A stretch of DNA of 45,251 bases from Escherichia phage vB_EcoS-101114BS4. The position numbers and the translations under genes were made by a program. The notes beneath the pieces were generated by a model, which saw only the letters and a program-made list of their open reading frames with translations, was not told the origin of the DNA and ran no database searches. The stretch lies in sequence record NC_073061.1; one strand, given 5' to 3'. Every line of letters starts with the position of its first letter. Positions within the stretch are counted from its first letter, which is position 1. This document shows positions 5,576-43,527 of the stretch, piece after piece.

Positions 5576-7096
5576 ATGACCGTTAACGTTGACAACCAGC
5601 ACCCACTCTATGCGCGCATCGCGCAGGAGTGGAAAATGATCCGGGATTGCGTAGCGGGGGAGCGCGCCGTGAAGGCGTGCGGCCCCTTGTACCTGCCACA
5701 TCCCGCCAGTGGCGATAATACCGACCCGAAAGCACGGGCGCGATATAAGGCATATAAGCAACGCGCTGTATTCCTGAACGCCACCGCACGCACGCTTAAT
5801 GCGCTGTTAGGCGTCGCCTTCGCTAAGCCGGTAAGTCTGGACCTTTCCGGGGCGATGGCTGACCTGATTGATGACGTAGACGGCAGCGGAATGCCACTGC
5901 CGCAACTCCTGCGCGGTGCTATGTCGGAAGTGCTGCAATCGGGCCGCGCGGGCTTTATGGTGGACTACGACCGCCAGGCTAACTTTGATGAACTGGGTAA
6001 CGTAGTGCCGCAGACCGCCGCCGAGATGGCGACGCACCGCCCGCTTATCCGCCTGTATACGGCAGAACAGATCATCAACTGGCGGCAGACCCACGGGATT
6101 GACACGCTAATCGTGCTGAAGGAAACGGACGAAATCAGCACCGAAGACCCGGACGACTTTGCAAACCACGAAGTAACGATCTGGACTGAATTGCGCATGA
6201 TTAACGGCGCGGCACACGCCCGCCGCTGGTTTTACAACGCAGACACGTCCGAGGTGCAGATGGACTTGCCGCGTGGCTTCACCCGCACCGAGCTTGTGCC
6301 GCTGGTGGATGCTGCCGGTCGAGCGCTTACTCAACTGCCATTTTGCTGGTGCGGTGCGGTGGACAACAACGCAACGCCTGACGCCGCGCCGCTGGCGGAT
6401 ATTGCATCCATCAACATTAAGCACTACAACGCTGAGGCGGACGTTGCCGAGATCGCGCACATCGTGGGCCAGCCTACCCTTGTCGCCACGGGCTTGACTC
6501 AATCATGGGCCGACAAAAACCTGAAGGGTGGGATTGCTCTCGGCGCGACTAAGGGCGTTATCCTGGGCCAGAACATGGACGCTAAACTGATTCAGGCCGA
6601 GGAGCGCAACTTGTCTGTTGCACTTTGTGAGCGCCGCGAATTGCAGATGGCTAAACTGGGCGCGGCCCTGGTTGAGAAGGGGACTGCACCAAAGACGGCA
6701 ACGGAAGCGGCATACGATGCGCAGACTGACAATAGTATCCTGTCGCTCATTGCCGGTAACGTTGAGAAGGCTTTCAACCGTGCGCTGCAAATCGTCCAGC
6801 TATTCACGGGTGATACCGCGGACCAGCGCGTGACGCTGAACAAGTTCTACACCGAAATCACGGTTGACGCGCAGCTTATGACCGCAATGATGGCTGGTGT
6901 TCAGACCGGTACGGTCCGACTGGCTGACTTCATCAAGTGGATGATGGCGCAGGGCGTTATCGATGACTCGCAAACCGTAGAGCAGGTGGAAGACGAATTG
7001 CGAAATCAGAATCCATTGCCTCAAATGTCCCCTGATGCGGTAGAATCTACCGAAGAAGACCCGGACAAGGTAGCGGACAATGGCGAGAACAATTAA
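5576..7096 (+). CDS. Portal protein
   Basis: 506-aa ORF directly after the large terminase, acidic C-terminal tail; assigned by size and synteny. Confidence 0.7.
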   Translation: MTVNVDNQHPLYARIAQEWKMIRDCVAGERAVKACGPLYLPHPASGDNTDPKARARYKAYKQRAVFLNATARTLNALLGVAFAKPVSLDLSGAMADLIDDVDGSGMPLPQLLRGAMSEVLQSGRAGFMVDYDRQANFDELGNVVPQTAAEMATHRPLIRLYTAEQIINWRQTHGIDTLIVLKETDEISTEDPDDFANHEVTIWTELRMINGAAHARRWFYNADTSEVQMDLPRGFTRTELVPLVDAAGRALTQLPFCWCGAVDNNATPDAAPLADIASINIKHYNAEADVAEIAHIVGQPTLVATGLTQSWADKNLKGGIALGATKGVILGQNMDAKLIQAEERNLSVALCERRELQMAKLGAALVEKGTAPKTATEAAYDAQTDNSILSLIAGNVEKAFNRALQIVQLFTGDTADQRVTLNKFYTEITVDAQLMTAMMAGVQTGTVRLADFIKWMMAQGVIDDSQTVEQVEDELRNQNPLPQMSPDAVESTEEDPDKVADNGENN

Positions 7097-8183
7097 TCAA
7101 CATATGGCGGATCGCATGATTCGCCGTCACATCTTCACCCAGCGCCTGAGCAATGACCAGGCGCGGCGGGTGTTGGCTATGTGGGAGAAGTTCCGGCCCA
7201 CGTTACTTGGCAAGCTGACCGAGTTACTTGATGGCAAAAAGTCCATGAATAACAAGGCACTGACCACACTGTTAACGCAAATCGACAAGACCGTCAAAAC
7301 GGAACTGCGCACCGAGTTTAAGGCGCTGGCTGAAAGCCTTCAGGAGTTTGCCGACACCGAGGCTGATTATCTTGCCGATACATTAACGGCAGCGATCCAG
7401 CCTGCGGTAGCCGTACCGGCTGTTGAGGTTGTTGGCGTAGTGACTGGCGCGCAGATTGCAGCCACGGCTATGAAAAACCCGTTCCAGGGAAACACCATGA
7501 TGCAATGGCCTGATTCACTTTCTGAGTGGACCAGGACGCAGATCGGGAATCAGGTGCGCGCTGGATTCATCCAGGGCAAGCCGACTATGGAAATTATCGC
7601 GGACGTAAAGCGCGCTCTCGGCGGTCGTAGCGCGCAAGCTATCTCAAGTGTTGTTAAGTCCGCAGTAAACCACTATGCGGCGACCGCCCGCGAGTTAATG
7701 GTGAAAGCTAATGACGATATTCTCGAAGGTCGCCAATGGTTGGCTACATTGGATACGCACACATCACCAATGTGCCAGCTACGCGATCGCCTGTTTTATC
7801 CTGTTGACGTCACTCCCGACACCAAAGGAAAGCGCGGCGGGAAAGTGGTGGCTGGATCACAATATGGCGCTGGTCCGGGCAAGCTACATTATTGCTGCCG
7901 TTCGACGGAGACGTGGAAAGTTAAAGGCATGGAAGATTGGCCCAGTGGTAAGCGTCCGGCACTGAAGGCTGACGCGGGTCGATTGCTGAGTGAGCAGGTC
8001 GACGCGCAGACTGATTTCTTCTCATGGGTGCAGCGCCAGCCGCGCCATATTCTGGAGGAATTATATGGGGTGCAGCGCGCAGACCAGATTATGCGCGGCG
8101 TGAAAGTGCCGAAGATGTTCACCGATACCGGCGAACTAATGACTATCGCACAGCTTAAAAACCGGGGGTTATGGCGTGATTAA
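7080..8183 (+). CDS. Head morphogenesis (minor head) protein
   Basis: 367-aa ORF overlapping the portal 3' end; position typical of F/gp7-like head morphogenesis proteins. Confidence 0.55.
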   Translation: MARTINQHMADRMIRRHIFTQRLSNDQARRVLAMWEKFRPTLLGKLTELLDGKKSMNNKALTTLLTQIDKTVKTELRTEFKALAESLQEFADTEADYLADTLTAAIQPAVAVPAVEVVGVVTGAQIAATAMKNPFQGNTMMQWPDSLSEWTRTQIGNQVRAGFIQGKPTMEIIADVKRALGGRSAQAISSVVKSAVNHYAATARELMVKANDDILEGRQWLATLDTHTSPMCQLRDRLFYPVDVTPDTKGKRGGKVVAGSQYGAGPGKLHYCCRSTETWKVKGMEDWPSGKRPALKADAGRLLSEQVDAQTDFFSWVQRQPRHILEELYGVQRADQIMRGVKVPKMFTDTGELMTIAQLKNRGLWRD

Positions 8184-13031: not shown

Positions 13032-13625
13032 GTGGCTGAGGTCTACTCGTTCGCCGCTACCATTGCAACATGGGTAGATAAGACGAAGGAGAACAACGAC
13101 AAGGCGGTGCGGGCGACCGGTATGCAAATACTCGGACGCCTGATTGAGATCTCCCCGGTGGGCGACCCCCGCCGGTGGAAGATTAACAAGGCTTACGCGA
13201 TGGCCCGCCAGCACGCGAACAAGGTGAACGCCGCACAGCGGCGCAAGAATGGCGGCAAACTGAAGCGCGGGCAGAAGAAGCACGCCAGTGTGCTCGTATC
13301 GTTCAAGACTAAAAACGGCAACGTCACGTTCCGCCAGCGTGGCTGGGCCGCGAAGAATTACACCGGCGGGCGCTTCCGGGGAAACTGGCAGGTGTCTTTC
13401 GACCGTCCGGCTGTTGGCGCTGTTGACCGAGTGGACAAGGCCGGAACGGCAACATTAGCCGCAGGGCGTGATGTGCTGGCGCATTATGATTCTGGCGAAT
13501 ATGGGTCGATCTGGTTTACTAACAATGTGCCGTATGCGCAGCGGCTTGAGTATGGCTGGAGTAAACAAGCGCCCGCGGGGATTGTTCGCGTCGTAGCGGC
13601 AGAAATCAATTCGAAGGTGAAATAA
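13032..13625 (+). CDS. Neck / tail completion protein (putative)
   Basis: GTG start, 197 aa, between connector genes and the major tail gene. Confidence 0.5.
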   Translation: MAEVYSFAATIATWVDKTKENNDKAVRATGMQILGRLIEISPVGDPRRWKINKAYAMARQHANKVNAAQRRKNGGKLKRGQKKHASVLVSFKTKNGNVTFRQRGWAAKNYTGGRFRGNWQVSFDRPAVGAVDRVDKAGTATLAAGRDVLAHYDSGEYGSIWFTNNVPYAQRLEYGWSKQAPAGIVRVVAAEINSKVK

Positions 13626-14108: not shown

Positions 14109-14834
14109 ATGGGTTATCAACTTCCTAACGGGTCTAGCGTCCAGATTGGGTCCGTACTGGGCGACGGCATCGCTGTTACGGCAGCTACCAACGCCACCGC
14201 GTCGATCTCTGACCTCGCTACCGGTTGCGTTATTACCTGCGCGGAATCTCATGGTCTGGTTGTTGGTGATGTGGTTATGTTCACTAAAACCCCGTGGGTC
14301 CGTGCGCTAAACCGCGCGTTTATCGTTGGCGCAGTGTCTACCAACGATGTGACGCTGGCGCGCTTCGACTCCTCGGACGTCACCAAATATCCTACCGGTG
14401 CTTTTGCAGTAGGCACTCCGGGTGAAGTGGTGAAGGTGTCGAGCTTTATCGACTTCCCGTTTATCACCAACGTTGCCGTGTCGGGTGGCGACCAGCAGAC
14501 GACTACCTTCCAGCCGTTGCAGGTGAACACCGCGATCAGTCTGAACACCACGAAAAACCCGTTGGTCCAGACGTACACCTTCACCCACGACGAAGAAGAC
14601 CCGATCCGCCCTATCCTGGAAGACCTGGACGATACACAGAAAACCACTGTTATTAAGTTCACGAACCCAGCGGCAGCAAGCGGCAAAGGTGAGATCCGTA
14701 TTTACCCGGCAAAGGTATCTTTCCAGAAGATTCCATCCGCTGAAGTAAACAACGTGGAAACGGTACAATCCACTCTGACCATGCAGTCTGATATGGTTAT
14801 CTACCGTAAGGATCTGGTCGAGGCACTGTCTTGA
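14109..14834 (+). CDS. Major tail (tube) protein
   Basis: 241-aa ORF with AGGAG RBS, followed by a terminator and the chaperone/tape-measure genes. Confidence 0.7.
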   Translation: MGYQLPNGSSVQIGSVLGDGIAVTAATNATASISDLATGCVITCAESHGLVVGDVVMFTKTPWVRALNRAFIVGAVSTNDVTLARFDSSDVTKYPTGAFAVGTPGEVVKVSSFIDFPFITNVAVSGGDQQTTTFQPLQVNTAISLNTTKNPLVQTYTFTHDEEDPIRPILEDLDDTQKTTVIKFTNPAAASGKGEIRIYPAKVSFQKIPSAEVNNVETVQSTLTMQSDMVIYRKDLVEALS

Positions 14835-14864
14835 TTTGGTCGCTTAAATAGCGAGTGTTAATAT

Positions 14865-14887
14865 GGGGCCAGCACGGCCCCTTTTTT
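14865..14887 (+). terminator. Rho-independent terminator
   Basis: ggggcc-agcac-ggcccc hairpin followed by tttttt. Confidence 0.7.
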
Positions 14888-14903
14888 ATTGGAGAATATT
14901 ACA

Positions 14904-15266
14904 ATGGCTAAAGCACCACTCTTCACACTTGACCCTAAGCCGACCTTTAAGCTGCCGATTGAGATCCCGCGCCCTGGTGAGAACGAACCAGGCAAGATGA
15001 CGTTTACCGTCCGCCACCGCCCGATCGACGAGTTTTCGCAGACCATGCAGGACACCGAACGCAAGCTATCGGAATATGACGACAATGACCCTGACGGCTT
15101 TAACGTTATGGTTGAGGCCATCATGCACGTCGCTGAAGGCTGGAATCTGCCAGACCAATTTAACGCTGAGAACGTCCGCCGTCTGGTAGTCAACTACCCC
15201 CGTGCGTTCGGCGTGTTCCACACCTCGTACTACCTCGAATTGATGGGACTACGTGAAAAAAACTAA
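14904..15266 (+). CDS. Tail assembly chaperone (lambda G-like)
   Basis: 120-aa acidic protein (GGAGA RBS) between major tail and tape measure genes; ends next to a slippery heptamer. Confidence 0.7.
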   Translation: MAKAPLFTLDPKPTFKLPIEIPRPGENEPGKMTFTVRHRPIDEFSQTMQDTERKLSEYDDNDPDGFNVMVEAIMHVAEGWNLPDQFNAENVRRLVVNYPRAFGVFHTSYYLELMGLREKN

Positions 15267-15580
15267 TTGAGGCGGCGCGACGCTTTTATGGCCCGCCGCC
15301 ACCCTCCGAAGATGTAGCCGCAAGTTTATGGGGCGCGGCCCCCGAAGATGTTTGCCCGTCTGTTGCGCTATGGCCCGACAACGCGAAGATAGTCGCAGTC
15401 TTCACAGATTGCTCTACGCAATGGCGCACCGGATTCGGTGGGGCATACGGCATCGACTACGGAGTTCTGGAGTGGCTATTTAAGATGCACGGCATCGAAA
15501 ACGAGCAACGTGCATTTAAAGATATAAAGCTAATGGAACGGATCGCGCTTGACGAAATGGCGCAACAAAACCCCGCATAA
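14904..15580 (+). CDS. Tail assembly chaperone frameshift product (lambda GT-like), made by a -1 shift near 15257..15263
   Basis: The -1 frame stays open for about 105 codons after the slippery site (KKLIEAARRFYGPPPPSEDV...QQNPA) and stops at 15578-15580. Confidence 0.65.
15257..15263 (+). other. Programmed -1 ribosomal frameshift slippery heptamer A_AAA_AAC
   Basis: aaaaaac in X_XXY_YYZ register three codons before the chaperone stop; conserved G/GT architecture of tailed phages. Confidence 0.65.
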
Positions 15581-15583
15581 TGA

Positions 15584-15750
15584 AGCGGGACAAGCGGGAC
15601 GTCCCGATCTGTCCCGTTTTGCCCCGCCCCCTGTAAAACTGCATATCTACTCACTTTCATTGCATAAACTCAAAGCGGGACAAGCGGGACGTCCCGATCT
15701 GTCCCGCCCCCTAAATATGCATACCTATTCAGATTTCGTGCATAAAACAA
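15584..15750. repeat. Two tandem units of about 90 bp, each with GCGGGACAAGCGGGAC, the palindrome CGGGACGTCCCG and TGCATA motifs
   Basis: aagcgggacaagcgggacgtcccgatctgtcccg occurs at 15584 and 15674; palindromes at 15595-15606 and 15685-15696. Confidence 0.85.
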
Positions 15751-15907
15751 ACGGGACAGAAAGCGGGACAAACAAGGGGCGGGACAAAGCGGGACAGCAC
15801 CCCGTCCCCGTCAGTGCTGCCGCGGGTTTCAGCCGATCGGGACAGGCGGGACAACTCCCAGTCTTTCAGACTAGACGGGGGTCAATGGCCCCCCTCGTCT
15901 GAGACTG
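15750..15907. repeat. Copy A of a duplicated iteron-plus-hairpin element (copy B at 43319..43527)
   Basis: Four to six GCGGGACA direct repeats followed by the imperfect long hairpin cagtctttcagactagacgggggtcaatggcccccctcgtctgagactg (15859-15907). Confidence 0.85.
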
Positions 15908-15976
15908 AATAAGGTTTGTTTGAAATTCGCTGATACAATGTCAATCGGCAACTGCATAAAAAAAGGGGACTGCATA

Positions 15977-18622
15977 ATGGCAGATCAAGCAGCAGGCATC
16001 ACGCTAAAGGCGGATGTTGCACAAATCAGAACGGCGAATACGGTGCTGGACTCATTCGCGCAGAAGTCCGAAAACACCGAAAACAAGGTCAAGAAATTAA
16101 ACGACACCCTCGGCAACTCAAAAAAGGTGACGAGTGACGCCGCGGGCGGAATGGGGAAGCTGGCAACTGAATCGCAGCGGGCCGCCGATGGCATGACGAA
16201 GCAGGAGCGACTTGCCAACCGCTTAGGCATGTCGACCAAAAACCTGGGCTTCGCATCGCGTAACGCCGCATTTCAGTTACAAGATATCGCGGTCACGCTC
16301 GAGATGGGTATGCCGGTGCACCGCGTCATGATTCAGCAGCTACCGCAGTTAACCGGGGCATTCGGTGGACTGGGTAACACGCTGCGTTATGTTGCTGGCT
16401 TTCTCGGTCCGGTAGGGATCGGCCTTGCTGCGGTAACGGCAACGCTAGGCGTAGGCGTGGCTATTACGTCCCGCGCAGAAAACCAGGTAGCGGCGCTGAA
16501 TAAGACGCTGGCGCTATCCGGTAACATCTCGGGCCTCACCGCTAACCAGATCCTGGTGCTGTCGGAGAACGCCGAACGAATGGGCGGTTCATTCAGCAAG
16601 ACGCGTGACACAATTCAGGCGCTGGCGGCGGCAGGTGTGAAAGCGGGTGCTGACTTCGGCGCGCTGGCGAAAGTAGTGAACGACTTCGCGAAGGTGTCTA
16701 ATCAGCCGATCGCCGACGTGGTGGAGTCCATCTCCAAATTGTCCAACGACCCGGTGGGCGGCTTGCGCGCACTGGCGGACAAGTATCACGTCGTTACCGA
16801 GGCGCAGATCCAGCAGGTGCAGTCACTGGTTACGACGGGTCGCGAAACGGAAGCGGTTGCGCTGGCTAACAAAACCGCAGCGGCGTCGTTCACCAGCATG
16901 ACCAACGAGATCAAGTCCAACATGGGTACGCTTGAGCGGTCGATGAACGTCGTAACATCGGCAGCTAAATCTATGTGGGACGCCATCCTGGATGTGGGCC
17001 GCGCGCAGTCTTCGAATGAATCCGAGATGAAAGCGCGTGAATCATTGCAGCGCATGACCACGGCCTACTACGCTGAGATGAAAGCGGTCAACGCTGCCGG
17101 TGGGGTAATGACTGAGGCGCAGAAAGCACGAATTAACATGCTTTATAGCGAACTGGTTGCACAGGAAAAAGTAGTAGCGTCGCTTACCCTGCGCAACCGT
17201 GCGGAGCGTGACAACGCCAGCGCCGCGGACAAATCAGCGAAGGCGAACGAGGAGGCCAACCGCACCGCCCGCGACCGTGCCGCGTTCGAGAAGGAATTTG
17301 CCACCAACGCTAAGAAGCGCGCCGACGAGATCGCCCGCCTCAATTTGCTGAATAAGCGCGGTGTGATTAACGAGAAAGAACTGGCTGAGGCGGTGAAGCA
17401 GGTCAACGAGCGCTACAAAGACCCCGCACCGAAGAAGGCGGCAGCAATTCGCGTCGATGCCGGTGTTAAAATGCTGGAGGTCGCGCGGAGCGAACTGGCA
17501 CAGCTTAAGGAGTCCGGCAAGCAGATCGAGGCCAATGCCACAACGCAGACCCGCACGCAGCGCGCACAGGCCGCGTTGAATAAGCTGGTGGCGGATAATG
17601 AGCAGATGGTCGCAGCAAGCAAGGAGCGCACTCTAACGGCAGCAGAAAAGCAGCAAATGGCTGAGTTCGAGGCGGTTAAAGCGGTACGAGAGCAGATCGT
17701 CGAAGAAGCCAAATTGCTGGACGCGAAAGAGAAGCAGATCAAGGCACACGCCCAGGTCGAGGCATTCATCAAGAACCAGAATGCCGAGCTAAGGGCCACC
17801 GCTGCGGGCTATGCGCTTTCCACTCGCGAAGCGGCTAACCTGCGCGAAGAATTACAGCTAATTGACCGCCTTCAGCGTGTCGGGGCTAACGATACCGATA
17901 TCGACAACGCGGTGTCTAAACTGCGCGAAGTGCAGGAAGCACAGACCGGTGCTAACGCCTCGTTGTGGGATGGCTTCAGCCGCGGGCTTAAGGATAGCGT
18001 GGATGAAATGGGGAACGGCTACACGCAGATGACGTCACTCACAAAATTCACGTTCGGCGCTATGCAGGACACGATGAACGAGTTTTTCGAGACGGGCAAG
18101 CTGAACGCGAAGGATATGGTTAAGTCCATCCTGAGCGAGTTAATCAAGCTGGCTACCTCACAGGCGTTTAAGTCCATCGTTAGCGCTTTCGGTGGGGACG
18201 GCGGCAAAAACGGATTGTTCGGCGCTATCTTCTCTGGCCTTACTAAGAACGCGGACGGCGGAGCGTACGCAGGGGGCAATCTCGCGGCCTATTCGGGGCA
18301 AGTGGTAAGCCAGCCTACCTTTTTCAGTTATGGCGTTCAGGCGTTCGCTAAGGGCGCTGGATTGATGGGTGAGGCGGGGCCTGAGGCAATCATGCCACTG
18401 AAGCGCGGGCCGGATGGGAAACTGGGCGTTGCCGCTGCCGGTGCTGGTGGGGGTGGGATGATTGTAACAACCAACGTGAACATGGGTACCGGTAAGACGG
18501 ACACCAGTGTGAGCGGACCGGACCCACGCACCGCGCAGGCGTTCGGAAAGCAAATCACCGAGTCGGTCAAGGCCGAGATCGTGAAAGCGACGAAACCGGG
18601 TGGAGTACTTTACAAACGATGA
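15977..18622 (+). CDS. Tail tape measure protein
   Basis: About 880 aa, alpha-helical Ala/Gln/Glu-rich coiled-coil-like, Gly-rich C-terminal region; start chosen at ATG 15977 with AGGGGA RBS. Confidence 0.85.
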   Translation: MADQAAGITLKADVAQIRTANTVLDSFAQKSENTENKVKKLNDTLGNSKKVTSDAAGGMGKLATESQRAADGMTKQERLANRLGMSTKNLGFASRNAAFQLQDIAVTLEMGMPVHRVMIQQLPQLTGAFGGLGNTLRYVAGFLGPVGIGLAAVTATLGVGVAITSRAENQVAALNKTLALSGNISGLTANQILVLSENAERMGGSFSKTRDTIQALAAAGVKAGADFGALAKVVNDFAKVSNQPIADVVESISKLSNDPVGGLRALADKYHVVTEAQIQQVQSLVTTGRETEAVALANKTAAASFTSMTNEIKSNMGTLERSMNVVTSAAKSMWDAILDVGRAQSSNESEMKARESLQRMTTAYYAEMKAVNAAGGVMTEAQKARINMLYSELVAQEKVVASLTLRNRAERDNASAADKSAKANEEANRTARDRAAFEKEFATNAKKRADEIARLNLLNKRGVINEKELAEAVKQVNERYKDPAPKKAAAIRVDAGVKMLEVARSELAQLKESGKQIEANATTQTRTQRAQAALNKLVADNEQMVAASKERTLTAAEKQQMAEFEAVKAVREQIVEEAKLLDAKEKQIKAHAQVEAFIKNQNAELRATAAGYALSTREAANLREELQLIDRLQRVGANDTDIDNAVSKLREVQEAQTGANASLWDGFSRGLKDSVDEMGNGYTQMTSLTKFTFGAMQDTMNEFFETGKLNAKDMVKSILSELIKLATSQAFKSIVSAFGGDGGKNGLFGAIFSGLTKNADGGAYAGGNLAAYSGQVVSQPTFFSYGVQAFAKGAGLMGEAGPEAIMPLKRGPDGKLGVAAAGAGGGGMIVTTNVNMGTGKTDTSVSGPDPRTAQAFGKQITESVKAEIVKATKPGGVLYKR

Positions 18623-43318: not shown

Positions 43319-43527
43319 TTATGCAGTTTTATTGCATAAAGTAAGCGGGACAAAAAGCGGGACAGACAGGGGGCGGGACAAAGCGGGACAGCACCCCTGT
43401 CCCGCCCCGGATGGCGCGGCTTGCAGGGGGGCGGGACAGGCGGGACAAACCCCAGTCTTTCAGACTAGACGGGGGTCAGTTGGCCCCCCTCGTCTGAGAC
43501 TGCATAAAATCCGGGATTGCATAATGT
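43319..43527. repeat. Copy B of the duplicated iteron-plus-hairpin element, flanked by inverted TGCATAA motifs
   Basis: Six GCGGGACA repeats (43345-43450), hairpin cagtctttcagactagacgggggtcagttggcccccctcgtctgagactg (43453-43502), ttatgcag at the left and ctgcataa at the right edge. Confidence 0.85.

What the first reader, a model, noticed from the sequence alone, without database searches (positions are those of the whole stretch)
15257..15263. Canonical -1 frameshift site (A_AAA_AAC) joining the G-like chaperone to a T-like extension
The chaperone ORF ends at 15266; the slippery heptamer aaaaaac sits three codons before the stop, and the -1 frame then runs open for about 105 codons to a stop at 15578-15580. 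This matches the conserved G/GT programmed frameshift of tailed phages and supports the tail-module assignment.
Basis: partly seen in the sequence, partly recalled or inferred. Interest (0 to 1): 0.4.

Follow-up and report, generated by a model that had tools for sequence, protein, structure and literature searches.

The report
Phage tail chaperone G/GT frameshift site
This is a real but ordinary programmed -1 ribosomal frameshift that lets an E. coli siphophage (genus Dhillonvirus) make a short tail-assembly chaperone and a rarer extended version from one gene; most public genomes of this genus fail to annotate it.

Summary
The window is a Dhillonvirus (HK578/SO-1-like coliphage). ORF 14904-15266 is a Pfam Phage_TAC_4 tail-assembly chaperone lying between the tail-tube gene and the tape-measure gene. 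Its last two sense codons with the preceding A form A_AAA_AAC (15257-15263). The 0-frame TAA follows directly, not three codons later. The -1 frame opens exactly at the heptamer and has no usable start codon. It encodes a full DUF1799 domain (E 1e-20) and shows third-codon-position-biased substitution. At the homologous position, 89 of the 92 relatives scored outside the window's genus (about 30-46% identity, 77 of them metagenomic contigs) keep X_XXA_AAC (A_AAA_AAC or G_GGA_AAC), almost always abutting the stop. A hairpin (15271-15300) starts 7 nt downstream. It coincides with a trough in synonymous variation (1/11 versus 68/93, p 6e-5), and its outer stem covaries across clades. The mechanism is the well-known lambda G/GT strategy. 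Three details are less routine: the heptamer is a weak one in E. coli (0.16-0.74% in published reporters), the stop is adjacent, and none of the 10 Dhillonvirus records opened annotates a joined product. No fusion protein has been shown.

The parts
14109..14834 (+). Context: major tail (tube) protein gene, the presumed binding partner of the T domain
   Evidence: PF08813 Phage_tail_3 E 2.7e-32; phrog_584 major tail protein E 8.5e-74
14865..14887 (+). Terminator-like GC hairpin plus T6 run between the tube gene and G (context; probably lowers downstream transcription)
   Evidence: Scan hit GGGGCCAGCACGGCCCC TTTTTT; function inferred
14904..15266 (+). G-like tail assembly chaperone ORF (120 aa), with GGAG Shine-Dalgarno at 14891-14894; ends ...REKN-TAA
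   Evidence: PF08748 Phage_TAC_4 E 3.7e-23 covering 1-120; same 363-nt CDS annotated in relatives; substitutions by codon position 11/6/78
15254..15256 (+). TGA in the -1 frame that closes the T frame immediately upstream of the heptamer, confining any productive shift to 15257-15266
   Evidence: Sequence, translation, open-frame bounds
15257..15263 (+). Slippery heptamer A_AAA_AAC (0-frame codons AAA Lys, AAC Asn)
   Evidence: Sequence. X_XXA_AAC is kept at the homologous position in 89 of 92 relatives scored outside the genus and in all 29 Dhillonvirus loci, including A_AAA to G_GGA switches that keep the pattern while changing the amino acids
15264..15266 (+). 0-frame stop TAA directly abutting the heptamer; overlaps the invariant first T codon CTA (Leu)
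   Evidence: Sequence; adjacent stop in 79/80 loci; TAA or TGA alternate in close relatives while the stop is kept
15271..15300 (+). Candidate stimulatory stem-loop: GGCGGCG (15271-77) pairs with CGCCGCC (15294-300), plus inner pairs 15279/15293 and 15282-84/15290-92; 7-nt spacer after the heptamer
   Evidence: MFE hairpin of -17.1 kcal/mol; synonymous-variability trough, 1/11 versus 68/93 third positions, p 6e-5; the only variable bases, 15278 and 15280, are unpaired; covariation across clades; same-position hairpin in T1-like phages. Not thermodynamically exceptional and not found by RNAalifold
15263..15580 (+). T-like extension in the -1 frame (105 codons plus TAA); predicted GT product = join(14904..15263, 15263..15580), 225 aa
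   Evidence: PF08809 DUF1799 E 1.1e-20; phrog_680 E 1.8e-30; substitutions by codon position 23/9/69 in the -1 frame; first ATG at 15485, and no ATG/GTG/TTG before it
15977..18622 (+). Context: tape measure protein gene, the presumed binding partner of the G part
   Evidence: PF06791 TMP_2 E 6e-44 and PF09718 E 7.6e-14

Best explanation
This is a programmed -1 ribosomal frameshift of the phage tail-chaperone (G/GT) type.

Most ribosomes translate 14904-15266 and stop at TAA, making the 120-aa chaperone G. A minority slip back one base on A_AAA_AAC: tRNA-Lys moves from AAA to AAA, and tRNA-Asn moves from AAC to AAA. They then read CTA (Leu) across the former stop and continue for 105 codons to 15580. 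The product is a 225-aa GT fusion with junction ...REKN-LIEAAR....

The slip is probably helped by two features. One is the GC-rich stem-loop that begins 7 nt downstream (15271-15300). The other, possibly, is the abutting stop codon.

By analogy with lambda, the shared G part binds the tape-measure protein. The T part (DUF1799) recruits the tail-tube protein. The low GT:G ratio is set by the weak heptamer.

What is shown here: the sequence anatomy, the domain identities, purifying selection on the -1 frame, and conservation of the heptamer and hairpin. What is inferred: that the fusion protein is made, its ratio to G, the role of the hairpin and the stop, and the binding partners.
For: - Phase and bounds of the heptamer, and the 10-nt overlap.
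- G is PF08748 and the -1 frame is PF08809, located between the tube and tape-measure genes.
- phrog_17368 (213 positions) matches G at profile 1-107 and the -1 peptide at 148-212. I infer that this family contains fused GT-length proteins.
- No start codon in the -1 frame before 15485, which lies inside the domain.
- Variable sites by codon position are 23/9/69 in the -1 frame, against 9/69/23 in the G frame.
- In all 28 loci where both parts were detected (L028 had no G match), T is in the -1 frame relative to G.
- Among the 80 IMG/VR relatives, 74 have A_AAA_AAC and 5 have G_GGA_AAC directly followed by a stop, and 1 has G_GGA_AAC with the stop 3 codons later. All 21 distinct T1-like sequences have A_AAA_AAC-TAA.
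- tblastn homology to T starts at its first residue in most loci.
- Hairpin evidence.
- Precedent: A_AAA_AAC is the proven IS1 shift site in E. coli (PMC4066793). Lambda G/GT biology is summarised in PMC5009743. [quoted passage not shown] Klebsiella phage Snyder annotates a joined 'frameshift product' over the homologous genes.
Against: - No protein-level evidence exists here.
- A_AAA_AAC gave only 0.16% (no stimulator), 0.19% (IS911 stimulators) and 0.74% (IS3 pseudoknot) frameshifting in E. coli reporters (PMC4066793 supplement). That is several-fold below the roughly 1:30 ratio of lambda, so either very little GT suffices or other features raise the rate.
- The hairpin is not more stable than shuffled sequence (z +0.63), and RNAalifold finds no family-wide consensus.
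- The covariation rests on about 3-5 clades, and the stem lies in conserved Ala-Ala and Pro-Pro codons.
- The A7 run also permits some transcriptional slippage.
Confidence: 0.9

Rival explanations
1. Transcriptional slippage. RNA polymerase adds one A (or drops two) in the A7 run 15256-15262. A fraction of mRNAs then carry G and T in one frame, with junction ...REKK-LIEAAR.
For: A run of seven A is present in the window and its genus. Homopolymer slippage by bacterial RNA polymerase is a known route to trans-frame products (PMC5009743).
Against: Relatives keep the heptamer pattern, not the homopolymer: T1-likes have A6, and Pseudomonas, Ralstonia and 6 IMG/VR relatives have G_GGA_AAC with no long run. 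The exact codon phase is conserved, which matters for ribosomes but not for polymerase. From my own knowledge (Baranov et al. 2005, not re-read here), efficient slippage in E. coli needs runs of about 9 or more. It may still contribute a minor share in this genus.
Confidence: 0.06
2. T is an independent gene translated from its own start, as annotated in SO-1 and HK578 (gp16 starting at ATT 15266) or as the small ORFs called in other records. No fusion is made.
For: SO-1 and HK578 records list a separate 315-nt CDS starting at the ATT that overlaps the TAA. Other records call short ORFs inside the region.
Against: There is no ATG/GTG/TTG before 15485, which would cut off about 70% of the DUF1799 domain. 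No Shine-Dalgarno precedes ATT (GTGAAAAAAACTA). The ATT codon is not conserved: relatives have AAA, AGG, ATA or ACA there. By contrast, the heptamer, the stop and the Leu codon are conserved.
Confidence: 0.03
3. A variant mechanism within ribosomal frameshifting ('shifty stop'). The slip happens after translocation, with tRNA-Asn in the P site (and tRNA-Lys in the E site) while the slowly decoded stop codon occupies the A site. The GT:G ratio would then depend on termination kinetics rather than mainly on the hairpin.
For: The stop abuts the heptamer in 79/80 IMG/VR relatives and in all Dhillonvirus and T1-like loci. Stop codons next to shift sites are known to raise frameshifting ('shifty stops', and the pea enation mosaic virus example, in PMC5009743). 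This could compensate for the weak AAC A-site codon.
Against: The adjacency may simply be inherited, because the stop overlaps the invariant Leu codon of T. L051 keeps G_GGA_AAC with the stop 3 codons downstream. No experiment has tested this.
Confidence: 0.25
4. Chance or decay: the -1 open frame and the heptamer are coincidental, or the locus is a gene broken by a frameshift mutation or sequencing error.
For: None beyond the general frequency of XXXYYYZ heptamers, roughly 1 per 700 codons in this window.
Against: The same arrangement is found in 145-157 independently sequenced Dhillonvirus genomes and in distant relatives. Pfam E is 1e-20 for the -1 peptide. The -1 frame shows a purifying-selection pattern.
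Confidence: 0.01

Closest known systems
Bacteriophage lambda G/GT programmed -1 frameshift (Levin, Hendrix & Casjens 1993; Xu, Hendrix & Duda 2004, 2013, 2014, as summarised in PMC5009743)
   Same: Two overlapping ORFs lie between the major tail gene and the tape-measure gene. The second ORF is in the -1 frame, has no start of its own, and is joined at a slippery heptamer near the end of G. The expected output is abundant G and rare GT.
   Different: Lambda uses G_GGA_AAG, which is efficient in E. coli, whereas this site is A_AAA_AAC, which is weak. From my memory of lambda, its G stop lies some codons downstream rather than abutting the heptamer. The proteins belong to different Pfam families (PF08748/PF08809 here), and lambda's families were not hit at E <= 0.1. 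No stimulatory structure is needed in lambda (from memory), whereas a conserved hairpin is indicated here.
Tape-measure chaperone frameshift of T1-like phages (Drexlerviridae), e.g. Citrobacter phage Stevie (PMC4319613) and Klebsiella phage Snyder (joined CDS)
   Same: G and T are homologous (about 34-41% and 34-39% identity). Tunavirus and Tlsvirus members have the same A_AAA_AAC-TAA junction and a hairpin at the same columns.
   Different: The hairpin sequence differs (GGCGGUU/AACCGCC against GGCGGCG/CGCCGCC). The A run is 6 rather than 7. In Rogunavirus Jk06 and in Snyder the heptamer has decayed to GCA_AAG or GCA_AAA_G one codon upstream.
IS1 insA-insB' -1 frameshift
   Same: It uses the identical heptamer A_AAA_AAC, which works in E. 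coli at low efficiency, and produces a fusion protein needed in small amounts (PMC4066793).
   Different: It is a transposase, not a virion-assembly chaperone. No stimulator has been established for IS1, whereas a hairpin 7 nt downstream is indicated here.
E. coli dnaX / IS911-type -1 frameshift signals
   Same: A heptamer followed by a stem-loop after a short spacer.
   Different: Those use A_AAA_AAG with an upstream Shine-Dalgarno-like stimulator. Here the A-site codon is AAC, and only a weak conserved UGGG lies 9-12 nt upstream of the heptamer; it is not a convincing SD match. In dnaX the shifted product is shorter, whereas here it is longer.

Membership tests
Tailed-phage G/GT tail-assembly-chaperone frameshift (Xu et al. 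2004 definition) | Two ORFs located between the major tail protein gene and the tape-measure gene | tested here: met
   PF08813 tube gene at 14109-14834 and PF06791/PF09718 tape measure at 15977-18622 flank the pair
Tailed-phage G/GT tail-assembly-chaperone frameshift (Xu et al. 2004 definition) | Second ORF overlaps the first in another frame and lacks its own translation start | tested here: met
   -1 frame, 10-nt overlap, first ATG at 15485, no SD
Tailed-phage G/GT tail-assembly-chaperone frameshift (Xu et al. 2004 definition) | Slippery sequence in the overlap, in the correct phase | tested here: met
   A_AAA_AAC at 15257-15263; it is the only in-phase heptamer lying in a -1 overlap in the window
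Tailed-phage G/GT tail-assembly-chaperone frameshift (Xu et al. 2004 definition) | The arrangement is conserved among relatives even where the sequence has diverged | tested here: met
   the -1 relation holds in every scorable locus, and X_XXA_AAC is kept in 89 of 92 relatives outside the genus
Tailed-phage G/GT tail-assembly-chaperone frameshift (Xu et al. 2004 definition) | A GT fusion protein is made at a low fixed ratio to G, is required for tail assembly, and is absent from virions | not testable with these tools
   Needs mass spectrometry or western blot, plus genetics
Pfam PF08748 Phage_TAC_4 | Score above the gathering threshold over the full domain | tested here: met
   82.5 bits against 21.1, residues 1-120 on profile 1-124
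Pfam PF08809 DUF1799 | Score above the gathering threshold over the full domain | tested here: met
   74 bits against 26, profile 1-80/80
Lambda gpG / gpT sequence families | Detectable sequence similarity to lambda's own G and T Pfam families | tested here: not met
   Only PF08748 and PF08809 were reported at E <= 0.1. The relation to lambda is one of position and mechanism, not shown homology. A fold comparison was not run.
Stem-loop-stimulated bacterial -1 PRF signals (dnaX / IS911 type) | Stable structure 5-9 nt 3' of the heptamer, supported by conservation or covariation | tested here: inconclusive
   For: 7-nt spacer, -17.1 kcal/mol; synonymous trough p 6e-5; 85% paired against 20-49% in slid controls, and covariation 0.364 against <= 0.172; T1-like pattern. 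Against: z-score not significant and no RNAalifold consensus
Stem-loop-stimulated bacterial -1 PRF signals (dnaX / IS911 type) | Upstream Shine-Dalgarno-like stimulator about 10 nt 5' of the heptamer | tested here: not met
   Only UGGG (Met/Leu-Gly codons) lies 9-12 nt upstream of the heptamer, and there is no GGAG or GAGG

The most novel reading that the evidence does not exclude
The PF08748/PF08809 chaperone family carries a fixed recoding cassette that is conserved from Escherichia to Pseudomonas and Ralstonia phages. The cassette is X_XXA_AAC (a 'eukaryote-style' heptamer that is weak in E. coli), an abutting stop codon, a 7-nt spacer and a hairpin. In this reading the abutting stop is a functional part of the signal. 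The slippage occurs after translocation, while termination is slow. The G:GT ratio would then be tuned by release-factor kinetics, a bacterial -1 frameshift mode that has not been dissected in a natural phage gene.
Probability: 0.2. Interest if true: 0.45.

Novelty: new member of a known kind. Interest (0 to 1): 0.25.

Why it matters
The main value is in annotation. Dhillonviruses are widely used model and therapy-candidate coliphages (145-157 GenBank records). All 10 records I opened either split the T region into spurious small ORFs, start it at ATT, or leave it blank. The correct feature is a joined CDS, join(14904..15263, 15263..15580).

The biology itself is the textbook G/GT strategy. 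There is also a modest mechanistic point. A whole chaperone family keeps a heptamer that performs poorly in E. coli reporters, always next to the stop and 7 nt before a covarying hairpin. That makes it a convenient natural system for asking how weak heptamers are boosted in bacteria.

Tried and rejected
- The protein database search with the GT fusion returned only two 58%-identical G homologues, so the phage GenBank collection and IMG/VR were used instead.
- The thermodynamic test of the downstream region was not significant: z +0.63, with 147 of 200 shuffles folding as well.
- RNAalifold on 61 aligned junctions predicted no consensus pairs. The full 7-bp window stem is clade-specific, at 64% paired family-wide. 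Only the outer 4 bp plus a 3-bp inner helix hold across clades.
- Rfam gave no relevant hit in 14800-16000, only sub-threshold miRNA noise over the repeat region.
- There is no solved-structure homologue by sequence. Structure prediction was not attempted, because only two usable homologues were available for an alignment.
- A literature search for 'Dhillonvirus' plus 'frameshift' found nothing about this site.
- An upstream SD-like stimulator was considered and rejected, since only UGGG is present.
- A ribosome-collision idea, in which shifted ribosomes stall on the GPPPP run about 10 codons downstream, was considered. The poly-proline run is not conserved across the family, so it is recorded only as a passing note.

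Full report
**What is in the sequence**

Bases 15256-15262 are seven A followed by C at 15263. The ORF that starts at ATG 14904 is preceded by GGAG at 14891-14894. It reads ...CGT GAA AAA AAC TAA and ends with TAA at 15264-15266.

The stop, however, follows the heptamer directly rather than three codons later.

The -1 frame has TGA at 15254-15256, so it opens exactly at the heptamer. It stays open for 105 codons after the shift, to TAA at 15578-15580. The two frames overlap by only 10 nt, so there is no other place for a productive shift.

The -1 frame has no ATG, GTG or TTG before ATG 15485, which lies deep inside the encoded domain.

**What the two reading frames encode**

- The 0-frame protein (120 aa) is Pfam PF08748 Phage_TAC_4 (E 3.7e-23, full length).
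- The -1 peptide is PF08809 DUF1799 (E 1.1e-20, full length).
- Upstream lie a tail terminator (PF13554) and the tail tube protein (PF08813). Downstream lies the tape-measure protein (PF06791 + PF09718).
- In PHROGs, family phrog_17368 (213 positions) matches G over positions 1-107 and the -1 peptide over 148-212. This is what one expects if that family holds fused GT proteins (inference).

**Where the window comes from, and how relatives are annotated**

The region is 90-98% identical to 145-157 GenBank phages of the genus Dhillonvirus, including HK578, SO-1 and SSL-2009a.

I opened 10 Dhillonvirus records, and none has a joined CDS:
- SO-1 and HK578 annotate T as a separate gene starting at the ATT that overlaps the stop.
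- Others call small ORFs inside the T region or leave it empty.

A homologous pair in Klebsiella phage Snyder is annotated as a 'frameshift product'. [quoted passage not shown]

**Is the -1 frame really coding?**

Among 20 distinct Dhillonvirus sequences, variable sites fall 11/6/78 on codon positions 1/2/3 of G. In the extension they fall 23/9/69 on the -1 frame, against 9/69/23 if read in the G frame. The -1 frame is therefore under purifying selection as protein.

**Is the shift site conserved?**

- In all 28 loci where both parts were detected, T is in the -1 frame relative to G. L028 had no detectable G match.
- T1-like phages (JMPW2, Reinasaurus, K50) have A_AAA_AAC-TAA at about 35-40% protein identity. 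Pseudomonas and Ralstonia phages have G_GGA_AAC-TGA.
- Three loci differ. Jk06 has GCA_AAG, ST22 has CAA_AAG and Snyder has GCA_AAA_G.
- In 80 IMG/VR contigs found with a T-domain alignment (37-97% identity), 74 have A_AAA_AAC and 5 have G_GGA_AAC directly followed by a stop. The last one has G_GGA_AAC with the stop three codons later.
- All 21 distinct T1-like sequences have A_AAA_AAC-TAA.
- In total, 89 of the 92 loci scored outside the window's genus keep X_XXA_AAC, as do all 29 Dhillonvirus loci.

The A_AAA to G_GGA switch changes three bases and the encoded amino acids while preserving X_XXA. That is the signature of selection on tandem tRNA re-pairing, not on the peptide or on a homopolymer. 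It argues for ribosomal rather than transcriptional slippage as the conserved mechanism. The A7 run of this genus could still add a little of the latter.

**Downstream structure**

A hairpin forms from GGCGGCG (15271-77) paired with CGCCGCC (15294-300) plus inner pairs. It starts 7 nt after the heptamer and has an MFE of -17.1 kcal/mol.

Evidence for it:
- In the Dhillonvirus alignment only 1 of 11 -1-frame third positions varies within 15266-15300, against 68 of 93 downstream (Fisher p 6e-5). The least variable 12-codon stretches of the whole G-T region are the ones that begin at the shift site and cover this hairpin.
- The two variable bases inside the hairpin, 15278 and 15280, are unpaired in the fold.
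- T1-like phages have a hairpin in the same columns with a different sequence (GGCGGUU/AACCGCC plus UCUG/CAGA). There, third positions vary at 6/12 against 74/92 elsewhere (p 0.03). The invariant third positions are the paired ones.
- On 61 aligned junctions, an outer 4-bp helix is 90.6% paired. One of its pairs occurs as C-G in 27 sequences, U-A in 18 and G-C in 12.
- With a 3-bp inner helix added, 85% of cells pair, against 20-49% when partners are slid. The covariation score is 0.364, against at most 0.172 for slid partners and 0.132 +/- 0.015 for shuffles.

Evidence against it:
- The stability is not unusual for this GC-rich sequence.
- RNAalifold finds no consensus.
- The stems overlap conserved Ala and Pro codons.
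- The covariation comes from only a few clades.

I rate a functional stimulatory hairpin at about 0.6.

**How efficient might the shift be?**

In systematic E. coli reporter assays, AAAAAAC gave 0.163% without a stimulator, 0.189% with the IS911 stimulators and 0.739% with the IS3 pseudoknot. AAAAAAG gave 39% with the same pseudoknot (PMC4066793 supplement). [quoted passage not shown]

Lambda needs roughly 30 G per GT (PMC5009743). A weak heptamer is thus qualitatively appropriate. The expected level here may be below lambda's unless the hairpin or the abutting stop raises it. The 'shifty stop' effect is listed in the same review. This remains open.

**Mechanism proposed**

Ribosomes translate G. 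On A_AAA_AAC a small fraction slip -1, read CTA (Leu) across the stop, and extend through the DUF1799 domain to give a 225-aa GT. By analogy with lambda (inference), the G parts coat the tape-measure protein and the T part brings in the tube protein. Neither ends up in the virion.

**Rivals**

- Independent initiation of T is contradicted by the lack of a start codon or SD, and by non-conservation of the ATT codon.
- Chance or pseudogene explanations are excluded.
- Transcriptional slippage is at most a minor contributor.

**Verdict**

This is an ordinary, well-understood kind of element that is unannotated in every record of this genus I opened. It carries some mildly interesting family-wide details: a weak AAC heptamer, an abutting stop and a conserved hairpin.

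Noticed in passing
window 15583-15855 and 43344-43447: There are dense clusters of the motif (A/G)GCGGGACA in direct and inverted orientation. They include an exact 34-nt duplicate (15583-15616 = 15673-15706), the palindrome CGGGACGTCCCG twice, and two 40-nt AT-rich units ending in GCATAAA. The first cluster fills the 340-nt gap between T and the tape-measure gene. With one mismatch allowed there are 31 matches in the window against 11.2 expected. SO-1 annotates the two clusters as 'region A' and 'region B' repeats. They look like arrays of binding sites for a phage DNA-binding protein, but their function is unknown.
   Followed up: partly
window 14865-14887 and 15583-15622: Terminator-like hairpins flank the G-T pair. 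GGGGCC-AGCAC-GGCCCC plus T6 follows the tube gene. GCGGGACA...TGTCCCG plus TTTT follows T, and HK578 annotates a rho-independent terminator at the equivalent place. The tape-measure gene would then need read-through or its own promoter in the repeat region.
   Followed up: partly
window 16120-16126: An in-phase A_AAA_AAG, the most shift-prone heptamer in E. coli, lies inside the tape-measure gene (TCA AAA AAG). The -1 frame stops after 3 codons. Relatives have G, C or T instead of the first A, so the full heptamer is not conserved and is probably incidental.
   Followed up: yes
L027 (Jk06) 1165-1183; L029 (Snyder) 1050-1066; L022 (ST22) 1190-1204: Some relatives have replaced the heptamer with a Lys-codon tetramer-type site in or just before the heptamer position (GCA_AAG, GCA_AAA_G, CAA_AAG). 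They keep the stop overlapping the Leu codon of T. The shift-site type therefore turns over within the family.
   Followed up: partly
window 15290-15304: The T extension begins LIEAARRFYGPPPPS. A Pro4 run, a classic EF-P-dependent stall motif, lies about 10-13 codons after the shift, roughly one ribosome footprint downstream. A stalled shifted ribosome could queue the next one on the slippery site. The run is not conserved outside the genus, where relatives have PP or P-x-P, so this is speculative.
   Followed up: partly
window 7487-7493 and 13379-13385: In-phase G_GGA_AAC heptamers occur inside two other structural genes (ORFs 7080-8183 and 13032-13625). Conservation and -1 frame openness were not examined.
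   Followed up: no
public records (L001, L003, L020, L002, L110): Annotation of the T region is inconsistent across GenBank Dhillonviruses. Some records show 2-4 small 'hypothetical protein' ORFs in mixed frames, one of them on the minus strand. G itself is variously labelled 'tail length tape measure protein' or 'major tail protein'. SO-1 and HK578 start T at ATT.
   Followed up: yes
protein database: The 5.8-billion-protein search returned only two hits (58% identity, G part only), although more than 140 near-identical phage genomes exist in GenBank. Close relatives seem to be absent from that collection.
   Followed up: no
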